From assembly GCF_003918875.1 (NCBI RefSeq), contig NW_025767333.1:1-64000 (forward strand): a DNA stretch of 64,000 bases. Direction: 5' to 3'. The position numbers are program-made. Each line of letters begins with the position of its first letter. Positions within the stretch are counted from its first letter, which is position 1. Shown in pieces: positions 17,377 through 41,300 of the stretch. The stretch is from Haliotis rubra. Lineage: Eukaryota.

Positions 17377-20300
17377 CTGTCTAATCTATTATTGAATAGC
17401 AGTGTTTGAGAGGAAAGTACGAATGATCACTGCATATATTTTATGTAACTATTTAGTCCATTATTGTTTACCAGTATTTGAGAGGTAAATAGGTGCCATC
17501 ACTGAGTATATTTTATGTAACTATCAAATTTCTTGTTGTATACCAGTATTTGAGAGGAAAATAGGACTCGTTACTGTTTATGTTTTATGTAACTATCAAA
17601 CTTCTAGTCGCCAGTCAACAAAGTTATATACTGTTATCATATAGCTGGGTGATGGCCGGGGGAAGGACATGTTTGTCTCTATGATCTCTGATATAATGTA
17701 TCTACTCACAGGGACAGAACATATTGTTAGTCAGCTGAGACAAGAGACACACATGAACATGTGTACATGTGCCCTATCTGAATAAGTGTCTACCACACAC
17801 ACATTAGATCTTTCTTCTAGCTGGTTATTTAGAAAGTTGGCCCCTTTGAGTATAACATCTTCTGGGATCTGAATCCCCAGGTTTATTCAGTGATCATACA
17901 GTGTAATGTTTAACTGCTCCTGACAATTTCTTTCACAAATGTTACCAAAAGTTCATTTTTTGTTGTCAGATGGCCAAGTCAGGTAGTGATGTTGAGTCTA
18001 ATGTCTCAAATCCCATATGAGTCAAAATGTTGTAGTTAATACCCAGGATTAAATGACAGCAGGTTTCAGGTGCTGATAAATTGGTTTGAAAGTGAAATAA
18101 GAACTGCACCTTGAGCATGTACTAGTGGATATGTGTACTATATAAATATCCTATAATATGATTATTATTGCAGTTATTTACAGTTGGTATACATGTATAT
18201 ATGTACACGTATGACACTTACGATTGTATCTATATTCAGTGTAATGTAAAACTGGCAATATGCTCCCAGTTACCCCCATTGCCCTGATGAAGGAGTTAGA
18301 ATATACTCCGAAACTTTGTGTTCCTCAAATAAAGAAACTGACATCCGTTAATTCTTGCTTTTATGTGTATCACTTCTAAATGCCTTTCAAAGAGTGTGTG
18401 AGTGAGTTTAGTTTTACGCCGCTTTCAGCAATATTCCACATGTAAATAATTGAGTCTGGACCAGACAATCCAGTGATCAACAGCATGAGCATCGATCTGT
18501 GCAATACGGATACAATGACATGTCTCAACCAAGTCAGCGAGTCTGACTACCCGATCGCCTCTTATGACAAGCATTGGTTACTGAAGATCAATTCTAACCC
18601 GAATCTACATGGGTATCGTTCAAAGACTTAGATGTACTTTGTCGCGCCATTACTGTTAACGTACGAAATATCCATCTTGTTGGATCGACATCTGTAAATA
18701 TGGTTACCGGTAGCTAATACCAAGTGAGAAATGTTTTTGTTTTTCAAAAATTGTAAAAATAAAGTTAAAACATCGTCCACTGTTTCATCTCCATACTTCC
18801 CCGTGTATTTGTGATGAGTTACCATGGTTGTGGGTGTAATCGTGCCCCTTCAATCTTTTGTCAGTGATTTGATCTAACACTGGGAAAAACAATACTTCTG
18901 TTATACCACAGAGTGGCAACGTTCTGTCTTACACTGAAACTAGTCAATCTTCACCAGTTATCTACTACTAAAGAAGAAGTTAAGGATAACCCAACTATCC
19001 TCATCCATATCTCTCATCACCATAGTCAATCTTTCATGCCATGATATATGAACTATAGCAATATGAAAGAATCCTTTCAGTGGTATGTTTTACAAATAAA
19101 AGGTACTGAGAGGTATTTCTGTCCCTAAATCCCCACCAGGCAGTCTTGTCATCCAGACAATCCAAACAACACAAGACCACAATAAGAATCCCTAAATCCC
19201 CCTAAAGCAGTCTTGTCATCCAGAGAATCCAAACAACACAAGACCACAATAAGAATCTCTAGTGTTTCCCACTGATATGGCAATGTCCCCCGCCACTATA
19301 GAATGGAATATCTATATTTACTACTTTAATTTTTTTGGGTCACATACAAGATGCTTTAAATGACTGGTGTCTGCATAATCACCCAATGTTGGCTGTCGAC
19401 ATAATTGAAAACATTGGGTGCAATATTTTATGAGATATCGCGTTTAAATAAGTTTGAAAAGTGGTCAAAGTGTCGTGGTGACCTTGAAGATAAGGCCAAG
19501 GTCACCTAAATCAACTGGTGTCTGCATAATCCCTTAATGTAGGCTGTCACCAAATTTGAAGACATTGGGTACAACAGTCCATGAGATGTCGCATTAACAA
19601 GAGCTTGAAAAGTGTTCAGAGTGCCGTGGTGACCTTGAAGATAAGGTCAAGGTCACCCAAATCGACTGGTGTCTGGGAAATCCCCTAATGTAGGCTGTCA
19701 CCAAATTTGAAGATATTGGACACAACAGTGCATGTGATATCACGTTAAAACAGTTTGAAAAGTGTTCAGAGTGCCGTGGTGATCTTGAAGATAATGTCAA
19801 AAAAGTCCTTTTTCTTTTCTATGCATGTTTGTTTCTTTTGTACAGGTCTTGTACTTTCTCAGTCATATGAACTGTCACCTTGTCGCTTGCTCTGTTTACG
19901 TTACGTTTGTGGCGTGTCTGCAGGTAGCGTTTCTGATGAGCCAATATAGGGAACAATTCTGTAAAACAAAAAAGGATTTACAAAGATAGACAAGGCTAAG
20001 AATCTGCGATCAATGCAGGCAAGATTTTTAGGATTTACCACAAGAACCATTTCAATATTTTGCATGTGTGTTCAACATATTACACAATACCATCCAGAAT
20101 ATGGTAACACACAAAATACTGGCTTGGATATGATGAATAAAGTTACAGGGCTTCAGTATAGATTTATAGACATTATCCACTTACGTATATGTAACAGGTG
20201 GTGTCATGAAATATCTCAAGCATCGTACAATTATATTCAGAGCTGTCTCCAATACTTGCTAATTTCACAATAGGTTCACAGACACAGATGATGTGGGATG

Positions 20301-38300: not shown

Positions 38301-41300
38301 CTTTTTTCCCAACAAACCTAGCTGCATGCTGTCGCACTGNNNNNNNNNNNNNNNNNNNNNNNNNNNNNNNNNNNNNNNNNNNNNNNNNNNNNNNNNNNNN
38401 NNNNNNNNNNNNNNNNNNNNNNNNNNNNNNNNNNNNNNNNNNNNNNNNNNNNNNNNNNNNNNNNNNNNTTTAACATTGATATATATAGTTATCCATATGT
38501 ATTTCAAACCGTTAAACAACACGCCCTGAAATTTAGTCCTGAAGTAAAACTAAAATTGGATACATAGTTTCATATACACAATACAGTTTATTTGTTTCAT
38601 AAGCTTACATTTGCCGGGGGAAGGAAAAAAAAGCTCGCGTGAAATAACGTTTAAACATCGGCTTCAAGTCGGCACAGGGCTGAATAATTCAGCGCCTTCT
38701 TTACAAAGGGTGAACAATAGTCCAACGCTTTGCCCAGCGCGGGCTATTTGACGGTGATCACGTGACTTGGATCAGCCAATACATTTCCCTCCACCTTGCC
38801 TCCACCAAATACTATTGTTTCAATAAGCAGATTCCTTGACTCTACATTTCTATTTCTTTCGTCTCTCTCCAAATGACGTGAATTTCATGGTATTATACGT
38901 GTGCTATATGATATTGATATGCTTCCATCCATGTGTAGTTCAAGCCTCTTATTTCAAACATCTCGCTGTCTAGTAAAACTAAAACTGTATCCATTAGTGT
39001 ACATGGCTCAAAATCATTTATTTCTCATCAAGCTATATTTGGATGGGAAAAAAACACACACTAGTATGAAATAACATATAAACCTACACCAACTTTCCAT
39101 TACTTTGATGGTGTTATACTTATACAGGACACGTTCTGTATGAAATGTTTTTCAACTACATTTTACATGACTCGAAGATTCCGTCTCCGAACCATGTTGA
39201 CACAACCCGTCTCTATTGTGATACGATGTACTTTCAACACACACACCCTGCATTCATCAAAACAGGTCGCACGCTCTGTCGAGCGCGGGCTATTTAAAAC
39301 GACGGAGTCACGTGAGTTGTCAAGCGCGCTCAATTCAAAACTGGCTGACGGGTACTGTCTGTCTGTCTATTCAGGGCAGCATGCTATACATAGCTCTATT
39401 CAGGACACTTTGCTTTTGTTTTTCTCTCGCTTAATGAAGAGTTTTCTGCACGACTGCCTTAAAACACCCACACCTTTCATTGAACTTTCCTGACCTGTGA
39501 CGTGCTGTCTATATTTACCTATCAGCTATGATCACGTGACTTACATCAGCCAATCCATGTCCTTACCTTCCCTCCACCTTCCCTCCACCAAAAGGACCGT
39601 CTGCTCCCACCTACTATACTACTAACAATGCAAATGTTATGTTTTTAATTCAATGTACAGGTAATCTTATCGTAAAAAATATCAATAAATGAATTTTTTG
39701 GATTTTCCATTGACAATTACAAGATAAAATGTATAAATAATTTCCATTAATATTATCAGTTTTACTTATAAGGTTTGAATTAAATCGCTGTCCATTAACT
39801 TGTTCATATGAAACTGCAATATTAGTCCCAATGTATTGACTATTGCAAACAATAGGACCTAATGTCAATGTTGCAGTTATGGCTACGCTTGATCTACTAA
39901 CACTTGTGTAAAGGGTTAAAATATGGTGTGATACTCTAAATGTGTCAGTTTCTTTTGTAACTTTTATTCAAACAATCGAAAACTTTCAAAAAATATAACG
40001 GTGTACCCTATATCCACGTATGATATGATATTGAACAAGGCCAAATGTAGGAACTGAAATTGGTTTCATGAAATTTTTTATCTGAATGATACGCAAAATA
40101 TACATCATAGTACTGAAAGTGTAATCAGAAGGATAGGACAAAATGGCGGCTTCGCTGACAAGGGTACACATGATTTTGCGAGGACTCTTCCCTTGATTCA
40201 GGGATCGTTTGTACATAAATATGAAATGTAAGTTATCAGAGTGACTCTGACTATCTGTGTATTGTTATATGTTTTCTTTGTAAGTAAGAGAAGAAGCCAG
40301 AAATGCTGATAATTACCGTTGTCGTTCTGCGTGATTTTGGGTCTGTTATGGCGTCACGCTGCATGGAAACTTTGTCAATTGCTTATGAAATATCAAATCA
40401 TTGCATTGTATCTATTTTTAATTTCCTCTTTCTTGCTATGATCGATACTCTTTCCATACATATTTTAAAGGTATTGAGCCATTGCAAGCAATGAATAGCC
40501 GGCTGCTACGCAGTATTAATCGGAATGTTTCTTTGTTTGTCTTCCGAGCACAGCGTTTGTTTTCACACCCAATATCCAGTTGGTATTGGTAACAAAGACC
40601 AACTGTGATTTGATTTTAAAATGTATGGGGAATTCATTGATGCATTTGTCTCAGCTGACTATGAAATATACGTGATGTGATAGGCAACTCAATACCGGCC
40701 TTTGCGAGACGTGGTTTTGTAAACACTATCCAATATGGCGGAAAGCGCACTTCGGCGTTCGTGTAAATATATTTTCGAAAACATCCAAACCGATTCTAGG
40801 TTCATCGGCAGCGTTTCAGATTATCATTAGTGATATCATGAAAAACTGATTTCAGTTATCATTAATATGTTATTTTTGAAATTCAGTACTCCCAGTAATT
40901 ATCCGATTTTCACATTTGAAAACATACTGTCTACACTGTAGAGCAAATAATGCTGTGAATCGTGATTTCGTATTGTGTATAAAATGGCGACATTTACGAT
41001 GAAGCCTATTTTGAAAGGTTATTTAAGCACTTTAGCTTTGTCTGAGATTTTAGTGGATGGTATCAAGAAACAGGGAATTTCCCGCAGAATACAACACTGC
41101 GAAGTATATTTGTGTGCGTGATATATTTAGAATTTTATTGGACTTCAAAGTGAGGGTTGAAGAGGAAGGACATATGTCCCTGTGGCACCCAGGGGTTTTT
41201 AGTCAAGTCCAGATACACGACCAGAGCACTAGCGGTGTCGCGGAGTATTCTTGACCCACTAGCTCGGGATACTCCATGGAGATCCCCGATTTCACTGAGG

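What the first reader, a model, noticed from the sequence alone, without database searches (positions are those of the whole stretch)
19819..39630. Polinton sits in a Drosha intron where the gene breaks off; no target-site duplication
Seen: three Drosha 3' exons lie left of the element, the nearest ~450 bp away. No upstream Drosha exon was recognisable in the 24 kb to the right, which instead holds an antisense GH27 gene and a same-strand DUF288 gene. The flanks differ (CATGAT left, AACAAT right), and the TIRs differ even near the tips. Established: Polintons make ~6-bp TSDs, and Drosha is normally an essential single-copy Microprocessor gene. Inference: either ectopic recombination between two Polinton copies rearranged or duplicated the Drosha 3' end, or the assembly joined two loci through the repeat. 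If real, the outward-facing TIR could also drive a dsRBD-only product, since the exon begins with an in-frame ATG (MFIMDQ...).
[Added by the scan's program, not by the reader: the finding's places include an assembly gap (unread letters, written N; its length is only estimated) at 36588 to 36721, 38340 to 38468. Whether the letters on both sides are continuous or in frame is not known: test that first.]
Basis: partly seen in the sequence, partly recalled or inferred. Interest (0 to 1): 0.7.

Follow-up and report, generated by a model that had tools for sequence, protein, structure and literature searches.

The report
Decayed Maverick beside a Drosha fragment
In an abalone-like genome, a worn-out 17-kb virus-like transposon without the usual insertion footprint sits where a three-exon tail piece of the Drosha gene stops; the piece looks like a decaying leftover copy, though an assembly mis-join is not excluded.

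Summary
A 17,140-bp Maverick/Polinton (22484-39623) has about 1.3-kb inverted ends and the canonical (AGT)2/(ACT)2 tips. Its 6-bp flanks, CATGAT and AACAAT, match at 3 of 6, which is chance level. Three minus-strand Drosha exons (dsRBD and tail) lie 447 bp to its left. A full Haliotis asinina Drosha finds nothing else in the 64 kb. To the right lie a 5.7-kb minisatellite and a plus-strand GH27 gene. The DUF288 label was not confirmed.

New evidence: the Drosha piece breaks 4-5 of 63 residues invariant in ten molluscs. It lacks GT at the conserved exon B donor and has a 1-nt frameshift in its tail relative to H. asinina. The two inverted ends are 95.2% identical and differ structurally in the middle, around gap 2. 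The polymerase gene is heavily broken, while four plus-strand ORFs are open.

Best reading (0.4): a decaying partial Drosha copy ends at an element whose two ends come from different insertions. A scaffold mis-join through the gaps (0.3) cannot be excluded without reads. Interest is low to moderate.

The parts
19819..19958 (-). Drosha-like exon C (C-terminal tail and stop). It carries a 1-nt frameshift relative to the H. asinina tail.
   Evidence: acceptor ...ttttacag|AATTG; stop at 19821-19819; residues 1326-1345 and 1347-1359 of P0001 align in two different frames, 95% and 100% identical.
21473..21613 (-). Drosha-like exon B (core of the dsRBD). The open frame runs on to 21418.
   Evidence: 7 PDB hits, all Drosha/Ribonuclease 3, E 3.1e-10; 98% to H. 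asinina Drosha; Pfam dsrm E 3.7e-7; no GT at the conserved exon end.
21930..22036 (-). Drosha-like exon A (linker and start of the dsRBD). It begins with an in-frame ATG.
   Evidence: 7 PDB hits, E 2e-11; 3 of 27 mollusc-invariant columns changed.
21853..21987 (.). 61-bp tandem duplication (2.2 copies, 97% matches) repeating the 3' end of exon A with its donor.
   Evidence: second HSP at 21927-21856.
22484..39623 (.). Maverick/Polinton-type element, 17,140 bp including 263 N. Tips are (AGT)2 and (ACT)2. No target-site duplication.
   Evidence: The end motif and the 6-bp duplication rule come from passages of PMC8097293.
22484..23759 (+). Left terminal inverted repeat.
37796..39623 (-). Right terminal inverted repeat. 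It holds gap 2 and 672 bases (38144-38815) where the left end has 141 unrelated bases.
23935..24333 (+). PC4-like ORF (132 aa), an accessory gene, open.
   Evidence: Pfam PC4, E 2.8e-12.
25906..26991 (+). Integrase ORF (361 aa), open. rve core plus a partial chromodomain (profile positions 2-28 of 53).
   Evidence: rve E 5.7e-8, Chromo E 4.2e-5. (PHROG transposase, E 0.0018).
27807..29081 (+). Capsid-like ORF (424 aa), open.
   Evidence: atlas score 0.98 to clusters of 427-457 aa, two of which carry PF21738 DJR-like_dom in 22-30% of members. No Pfam hit. The single-sequence model was too poor to use.
29118..29618 (+). Adenovirus-type cysteine protease-like ORF (166 aa), open.
   Evidence: Peptidase_C5 E 0.0022, 18.1 bits, below the 21.3-bit cut-off.
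30231..31123 (+). Possible packaging-ATPase remnant, not in one open frame. Bounds are approximate.
   Evidence: Pox_A32 E 0.029, AAA_33 E 0.32, on one short frame only. Weak.
32836..37494 (-). Protein-primed B-family DNA polymerase gene with N-terminal C2H2 fingers. It is broken and spans gap 1.
   Evidence: 2015 relatives at E<=0.001; best is P0126, 67% identical. P0126 carries zf-C2H2 and DNA_pol_B_2; 8 HSPs, 1169 of 1574 residues covered, 6 frame changes and 6 stops; zf-C2H2 on the minus strand.
36588..36721 (.). Assembly gap 1 (134 N), inside the polymerase gene.
38340..38468 (.). Assembly gap 2 (129 N), inside the right inverted repeat.
42014..47730 (.). 30-bp minisatellite, 190 copies.
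48349..60154 (+). GH27 (alpha-N-acetylgalactosaminidase-like) gene, 7 exon matches.
63539..64000 (-). End of an unidentified minus-strand open frame, cut by the window edge.
   Evidence: no Pfam family; atlas 0.97 to unnamed clusters.

Best explanation
The window is abalone-like (Haliotis) DNA. A degraded Maverick/Polinton lies at the point where a three-exon 3' piece of Drosha (dsRBD and tail) stops.

I read the Drosha piece as a partial DNA-level copy. It keeps its introns, and it is no longer under Drosha's constraint. The working gene would then lie elsewhere in the genome.

I read the element as a hybrid. Its left end and left flank come from an insertion in the Drosha intron. Its right end and right flank come from another copy of the same family. 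The two were joined by homologous exchange between copies. That would explain three things at once: the missing 6-bp duplication, the structural difference between the two inverted ends, and the abrupt end of the gene.

Shown here: the anatomy, the missing duplication, the absence of upstream exons in 64 kb, and the odd substitutions. Inferred: the exchange itself, and the existence of a second, intact Drosha.
For: IDENTITY OF THE ELEMENT AND ITS EXACT ENDS
- Inverted ends.
- (AGT)2/(ACT)2 tips, matching the motif described for Mavericks (PMC8097293 passages).
- An rve integrase.
- A polymerase whose best relative carries DNA_pol_B_2.

NO DUPLICATION
- The flanks match at 3 of 6; P=0.002 under a true duplication with 5% divergence.

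THE ENDS DIFFER
- 95.2% identity over 812 columns.
- 141 versus 672 unrelated bases in the middle.

THE DROSHA PIECE LOOKS UNCONSTRAINED
- All 4 differences from H. asinina Drosha in 101 compared residues fall on columns invariant in ten molluscs.
- Counting the junction codon, 5 of 63 invariant columns are broken. Leave-one-out references break 0-3 of 63-66.
- The neighbouring GH27 gene is about as diverged: my hand count gives 374 of 386 exon residues identical.
- The conserved exon B donor reads CT, not GT.
- The tail has a 1-nt frameshift relative to H. asinina.

NO OTHER DROSHA CODING SEQUENCE
- None in the window.
- The space upstream holds a whole opposite-strand gene and the end of a same-strand open frame.

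UNEVEN DECAY INSIDE THE ELEMENT
- Four plus-strand ORFs are open, while the polymerase has 6 frame changes and 6 stops.

PRECEDENT FOR THE SIGNATURE
- Chimeric Galileo copies have exchanged duplications and about 6% divergence between the ends within one copy (PMC2775673 passages).
Against: - Two assembly gaps lie in the right part of the element, one inside the right inverted end. A scaffold join of two loci explains the missing duplication and the missing exons equally well.
- No second copy, reciprocal flank or read evidence could be examined.
- Four or five replacements is a small number, and Lottia and Babylonia each break 3 invariant columns.
- Two of 10 GT/GC candidates downstream of exon B still keep the frame, so splicing to exon C is not excluded.
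- The tail is poorly conserved among molluscs. A 1-nt deletion in an A-rich run could also be a consensus error.
- Uneven decay could reflect poor consensus near the gaps.
- 5% divergence between the ends is also what a single old insertion would show.
Confidence: 0.4

Rival explanations
1. Scaffold mis-join. The left contigs carry a Maverick in an intron of Drosha (working gene or copy). The contig right of gap 2, or of gap 1, belongs to another copy of the same family at the minisatellite/GH27 locus. The gene's break and the missing duplication are then artefacts.
For: The gaps lie inside the repeat. The sequences on both sides of gap 2 match nothing that would bridge them. The flanks do not match. 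No upstream exons lie to the right. Mavericks are reported across all analysed mollusc genomes, so several copies are likely (PMC10294476 passage).
Against: The right end already departs from the left end inside uninterrupted sequence on both sides of gap 2, so the structural difference is not made by the gap alone. The order and orientation of the inner and outer repeat blocks across gap 2, and of the polymerase parts across gap 1, are as expected for one element. A mis-join does not explain the odd residues in the Drosha exons.
Confidence: 0.3
2. A single old insertion into an already truncated Drosha fragment, or next to its duplication breakpoint. A later deletion or rearrangement at one flank then removed one copy of the duplication. 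The element played no part in the break.
For: The element is old: 95.2% identity between the ends and a heavily broken polymerase. The region is full of tandem repeats that favour local rearrangement (32 rows). Signs of decay in the Drosha piece.
Against: It needs an extra event exactly at an intact element tip, since both (AGT)2/(ACT)2 tips are preserved. It does not explain the 141 versus 672 unrelated bases in the middle of the ends.
Confidence: 0.15
3. This is the working Drosha gene. Its RNase III exons lie beyond the window, across an intron of more than 42 kb that holds the element, the minisatellite, the GH27 gene and more. The duplication has simply mutated away.
For: In H. asinina the Drosha and GH27 proteins come from contigs of the same length, 101,978,182 bp, so from one chromosome. 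Exons A and B have good splice sites and open frames. Two frame-keeping donors exist for the B-C junction.
Against: P=0.002 for so poor a flank match under a true duplication. Invariant residues are replaced. The tail is frameshifted. A same-strand open frame ends at 63539, inside the supposed intron. Sharing a 102-Mb chromosome is weak evidence of linkage.
Confidence: 0.1

Closest known systems
Maverick/Polinton virus-like transposons (as described for vertebrates in PMC8097293; reported across molluscs in PMC10294476)
   Same: Size of about 17 kb, long terminal inverted repeats and the 5'-(AGT)2//(ACT)2-3' end motif. Also an rve-type integrase, a protein-primed B-family polymerase, an adenovirus-type protease-like ORF and a capsid-like ORF.
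   Different: No 6-bp target-site duplication. The polymerase is broken 12 times by my count. The ATPase is only a weak remnant. No minor capsid gene was recognised. The polymerase has N-terminal C2H2 fingers, and a PC4-like accessory ORF is present. The two ends are not collinear in their middle.
Chimeric Galileo copies at Drosophila buzzatii inversion breakpoints (PMC2775673)
   Same: One transposon copy whose two flanks do not form a duplication, and whose two inverted ends differ by about 5-6%. That paper takes this as the mark of ectopic recombination between two copies (passages; here).
   Different: There, the partner copy, the exchanged duplications and the unrearranged chromosome were all sequenced. 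Here, none of these could be seen. Galileo is a P-superfamily cut-and-paste element, not a Maverick.
Drosha (Microprocessor RNase III), e.g. H. asinina 'ribonuclease 3-like' P0001 and human Drosha structures 5B16, 6V5B, 2KHX
   Same: Exons A-C correspond to the last 111 residues or so: the linker, the dsRBD and the tail.
   Different: No RNase III domains or any other upstream part in 64 kb. Residues invariant in molluscs are replaced. The conserved donor is missing. The tail is frameshifted.

Membership tests
Maverick/Polinton | Long terminal inverted repeats | tested here: met
   22484-23759 against 37796-39623. The outer block has 812 columns at 95.2% identity.
Maverick/Polinton | Conserved end motif 5'-(AGT)2//(ACT)2-3' | tested here: met
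   (AGTAGT... and ...ACTACT). The motif is taken from passages of PMC8097293.
Maverick/Polinton | 6-bp target-site duplication | tested here: not met
   CATGAT against AACAAT, 3 of 6. With ends shifted by up to 4 nt and lengths 4-8, there was no exact repeat of 5 nt or more, and none of 6 nt or more with at most one mismatch.
Maverick/Polinton | Protein-primed B-family DNA polymerase | tested here: met
   The window's own pieces hit no Pfam polymerase family. The best relative, P0126 (67% identical), carries DNA_pol_B_2 (E 1.7e-7). The gene is broken.
Maverick/Polinton | Retroviral-type (rve) integrase | tested here: met
   rve E 5.7e-8, 33.4 bits against a cut-off of 32.6, plus a partial chromodomain.
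Maverick/Polinton | Adenovirus-type cysteine protease | tested here: inconclusive
   Peptidase_C5 E 0.0022, 18.1 bits, below the 21.3-bit cut-off.
Maverick/Polinton | FtsK/A32-type packaging ATPase | tested here: inconclusive
   Pox_A32 E 0.029 on one 75-aa frame. PHROGs gave nothing.
Maverick/Polinton | Double jelly-roll major capsid protein | tested here: inconclusive
   atlas 0.98 to clusters in which 22-30% of members carry DJR-like_dom. No Pfam hit. The model had pLDDT 39.4 and was not searched.
Maverick/Polinton | Minor (penton) capsid protein | tested here: inconclusive
   No family hit for the open frames between integrase and capsid-like ORF. No comparator was available.
Functional Drosha gene | Two RNase III domains upstream of the dsRBD | tested here: not met
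   (no HSP below E 1.2 outside residues 1225-1359). (0 of 150 right-flank frames). Within this window only.
Functional Drosha gene | C-terminal dsRBD | tested here: met
   (dsrm E 3.7e-7).
Functional Drosha gene | Residues invariant across relatives are kept | tested here: not met
   3 of 27 (exon A), 2 of 28 (exon B, one being the junction codon) and 0 of 8 (exon C) invariant columns changed. References break 0-3 of 63-66.
Functional Drosha gene | Canonical splice sites joining the exons in frame | tested here: inconclusive
   The A-B junction is canonical. The conserved B donor is absent. Of 10 GT/GC candidates, 2 keep the frame. The exons were not joined.
Chimeric transposon copy from ectopic recombination | Flanks that do not form a duplication | tested here: met
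Chimeric transposon copy from ectopic recombination | Ends more divergent within the copy than in ordinary copies of the family | not testable with these tools
   The ends are 95.2% identical, but no other copy could be fetched.
Chimeric transposon copy from ectopic recombination | A partner copy with the reciprocal flanks | not testable with these tools
   There is no other copy in the window, and no access to the assembly.

The most novel reading that the evidence does not exclude
Exchange between two Maverick copies duplicated the 3' end of Drosha. It left a stand-alone unit that starts with its own ATG and encodes only the dsRBD: exon A, exon B and a short read-through, about 100 residues. 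This unit would be transcribed from the element's outward-facing end or from nearby, and kept as a small dsRNA-binding protein that could interfere with or tune Microprocessor. It would be a virus-like transposon creating a new regulator out of an essential RNA-processing gene.
Probability: 0.05. Interest if true: 0.6.

Novelty: new member of a known kind. Interest (0 to 1): 0.25.

Why it matters
If the join is real, this is a concrete case of a Maverick/Polinton sitting at, and probably causing, a structural rearrangement that copied part of an essential gene. Such evidence is plentiful for cut-and-paste elements such as Galileo. I did not find it described for Mavericks in the searches I ran. 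If the join is an artefact, the locus flags a mis-scaffold through a multi-copy element that would corrupt the Drosha gene model of this assembly. Either way, annotators should not take these three exons as the species' Drosha without checking.

Tried and rejected
- Pfam on the translated minisatellite frames 20451-21341 gave only DUF hits on repeat-derived peptides. I ignored them.
- A single-sequence AlphaFold model of the capsid-like ORF had mean pLDDT 39.4, so I ran no fold search.
- PHROGs found a family for 1 of 19 element frames, the integrase only.
- Rfam at gathering score and ARAGORN found nothing in the window.
- CpG observed/expected along the element (0.75-1.08) showed no left/right contrast that would support two ages.
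The copy number of the family stayed unchecked.
- The search for Drosha in other abalones listed H. asinina alone among the best 120 of 895 hits.
- The DUF288 label was rejected for lack of any family match.
- I considered that the Drosha exons were cargo of the element. I rejected this because they lie outside the inverted ends.
- I considered a retrocopy. I rejected this because the introns are kept.
- The genome-contig scan was not used, since that collection holds only bacteria and archaea.

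
Full report
SOURCE AND SETTING

The window has 41% G+C on average and two N runs, 36588-36721 and 38340-38468. 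Its host genes point to an abalone. The last GH27 exon is 97% identical to an H. asinina alpha-N-acetylgalactosaminidase-like protein, 95% to H. rubra and 93% to H. rufescens (5 proteins of 450 candidates). The dsRBD exon is 98% identical to H. asinina 'ribonuclease 3-like' (1 of 5 candidates). I take it for a Haliotis species other than those three and went no further. Nothing here is human.

THE ELEMENT

Inverted repeats pair 22480-23759 with 37796-39627 (blastn).
- The outer block is 95.2% identical over 812 columns, with 28 mismatches and 11 gap columns spread evenly.
- The inner block is 85.5% identical over 351 columns.
- Between the blocks the left end has 141 bases and the right end 672, 129 of them N. 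These stretches match neither each other nor anything else in the window, apart from a roughly 50-nt subterminal motif.
- The tips read AGTAGT... and ...ACTACT. This is the commonest Maverick end motif in the passages I read of PMC8097293, and it fixes the ends at 22484 and 39623.
- That paper also describes perfect 6-bp duplications for intact elements. Here the flanks are CATGAT and AACAAT, matching at 3 of 6. That is expected by chance 18% of the time. It has probability 0.002 if a true duplication had diverged by 5%. Shifting the ends by up to 4 nt gives only one exact 4-mer.

GENES OF THE ELEMENT

Of 15 ORFs of 100 aa or more, 4 had a Pfam family at E<=0.01:
- a PC4-like ORF;
- an rve integrase with part of a chromodomain;
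- a weak adenovirus-protease match;
- a weak DUF match.

A wider scan used 108 of 124 stop-free frames. I dropped 16 frames that lay opposite the integrase, capsid-like or protease ORFs or inside the right end. It added C2H2 fingers on the minus strand and a weak A32-type ATPase match.

The 424-aa ORF scores 0.98 in the atlas to clusters of 427-457 aa, two of which carry a DJR-like domain in 22-30% of members. I treat this as a lead, not a test.

The polymerase pieces hit no Pfam family themselves. One 309-aa piece has 2015 relatives at E<=0.001. The best, P0126 (1574 aa), carries N-terminal C2H2 fingers and DNA_pol_B_2. Against P0126 the window gives 8 HSPs on the minus strand with outer bounds 32836-37494. 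They cover 1169 of 1574 residues, with 6 frame changes and 6 stops.

So one gene is heavily broken, a second (the ATPase) is at best a remnant, and four plus-strand ORFs are open. This is a fossil, not a working element.

THE GAPS

- Gap 1 lies inside the polymerase gene. The relative aligns on both sides in the right order and strand, but only several hundred bases away from the gap. The sides are therefore collinear. Whether they are in frame cannot be known, and would mean little in a gene already out of frame.
- Gap 2 lies in the part of the right end that has no counterpart in the left end, and nothing bridges it. The inner and outer repeat blocks are in the expected order across it.
- The N runs were not filled or looked up.

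THE DROSHA PIECE

On the minus strand there are three exons.
- Exon A is 22036-21930. It follows a CAG acceptor, starts with ATG and ends at CAA|gtaagt.
- Exon B starts at 21613 after a CAG acceptor.
- Exon C is 19958-19819.

I searched the exons one by one and left the joined step out. A and B each hit 7 PDB sequences, all Drosha. C hit none.

tblastn of the H. asinina protein finds these exons and nothing else credible in 64 kb. None of the 150 scanned right-flank frames has an RNase III or dsrm family.

SIGNS THAT THE PIECE IS NOT UNDER DROSHA'S CONSTRAINT

- Against ten named mollusc Droshas, the window changes 3 of 27 invariant columns in exon A (D, K and A where all ten have N, N and S; human Drosha also has N, N and S at these positions).
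- In exon B it changes 2 of 28, one of them the junction codon. In exon C it changes 0 of 8.
- Each reference, tested against the other nine, breaks 0-3 of 63-66.
- All four differences from H. asinina fall on invariant columns, and none on variable ones.
- The conserved end of exon B is followed by CT, not GT. Of 10 GT/GC candidates downstream, 3 have the right phase, one of those makes a stop, and 2 keep the frame: a weak GC site and a GT 47 nt further on.
- The H. asinina tail is found 100% identical but in another frame, so the window has a 1-nt deletion relative to it.
- A 61-bp tandem duplication repeats the exon A donor.

None of these signs is decisive alone. The counts are small, the tail is variable among molluscs, and a 1-nt error in an A-rich run is possible.

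SURROUNDINGS

- Left of the piece lie tandem repeats and a long plus-strand ankyrin-repeat region.
- Right of the element lie 2.4 kb of unassigned sequence, a 5.7-kb 30-bp minisatellite and a seven-exon GH27 gene on the plus strand. By my hand count, 374 of 386 of its exon residues are identical to H. asinina.
- A minus-strand open frame ends at 63539.
- In H. asinina, the Drosha and GH27 proteins come from contigs of the same length, 101,978,182 bp. This is weak evidence of linkage.

READING

Two questions are separate: is the Drosha piece functional, and is the join real?
- I put the chance that the piece is a decaying partial copy at about 0.6.
- I put the chance of a mis-join through the gaps at about 0.3.
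- The best single account (0.4) is a real hybrid element made by exchange between two family copies, with the partial Drosha copy ending at it. The same signature (flanks that do not pair, ends about 6% apart) is what PMC2775673 uses for Galileo (passages). There, however, the partner copies were also sequenced.
- The rivals are a mis-join (0.3), an unrelated flank rearrangement (0.15) and a working gene with an intron of more than 42 kb (0.1).

LITERATURE SEEN

- PMC8097293: three passages.
- PMC2775673: abstract and passages.
- PMC10294476: three passages, one stating that Mavericks occur in all analysed mollusc genomes.
- PMC12479628: four passages, nothing on abalone Drosha copy number.
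- All other papers: search listings only.
- No supplements were opened.
- I found no paper on a Drosha duplicate in abalone (13 papers hold both terms, 10 were listed, and I read passages of one).
- I found no paper on Maverick-mediated rearrangement in molluscs. These searches cover open-access text only.

UNCHECKED

- The rest of this genome, other copies of the element and related abalone DNA.
- Shorter or split Drosha models in H. rufescens and H. rubra.

Noticed in passing
window 42014-47730: A 30-bp minisatellite of about 190 copies (88% matches). Its translation gives long stop-free frames of up to 620 aa that are not genes.
   Followed up: partly
window 21853-21987: A 61-bp tandem duplication (2.2 copies, 97%) repeats the last 50 or so bases of Drosha exon A together with its GTAAGT donor. 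Use of the second donor would shift the frame.
   Followed up: partly
window 23935-24333 (+): A PC4-like (transcriptional coactivator p15) ORF lies just inside the left inverted end of the element (Pfam E 2.8e-12). It is an accessory gene not among the core Maverick genes named in PMC8097293.
   Followed up: no
window 35960-37524 (-): The element's polymerase starts with C2H2 zinc fingers, as does its best relative P0126. The finger region here takes about 1 kb more DNA than the matching stretch of P0126.
   Followed up: partly
window 3311-10874 (+): A long ankyrin-repeat coding region is split over 11 open frames, the largest 1093 aa, with a 99-bp tandem array at 4177-6232. It may be one large gene with short introns, or a decayed one.
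   Followed up: no
window 58081-59194 (+): A Tc1/mariner-like transposase remnant (DDE_1, HTH_38, HTH_Tnp_Tc3_2) lies inside a GH27 intron.
   Followed up: no
window 13424-17328, 19363-19794, 20396-21274, 22066-22284: The Drosha piece is hemmed in by tandem arrays: a 34-bp satellite of 3.9 kb, a 151-bp repeat starting about 25 nt after the stop codon, a 17/51-bp repeat in the B-C intron, and a 29-bp repeat just upstream of exon A.
   Followed up: no
window 18379-18628, 41663-42010, 61014-61229, 62706-62876: Similar peptide strings recur in open frames at these places, which suggests a dispersed short repeat family. I did not characterise it.
   Followed up: no
(protein search, not the window): Among the best 120 of 895 Drosha relatives of 747-2379 aa, H. 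asinina is the only abalone. No H. rufescens or H. rubra model appears, although their GH27 proteins are in the same database. Their Drosha models may be split, short or missing.
   Followed up: no
window 22484-39623: Decay is uneven. The four plus-strand ORFs in the left half are open, while the minus-strand polymerase in the right half has 6 frame changes and 6 stops. This could mean parts of different age, or poor consensus near the gaps.
   Followed up: partly
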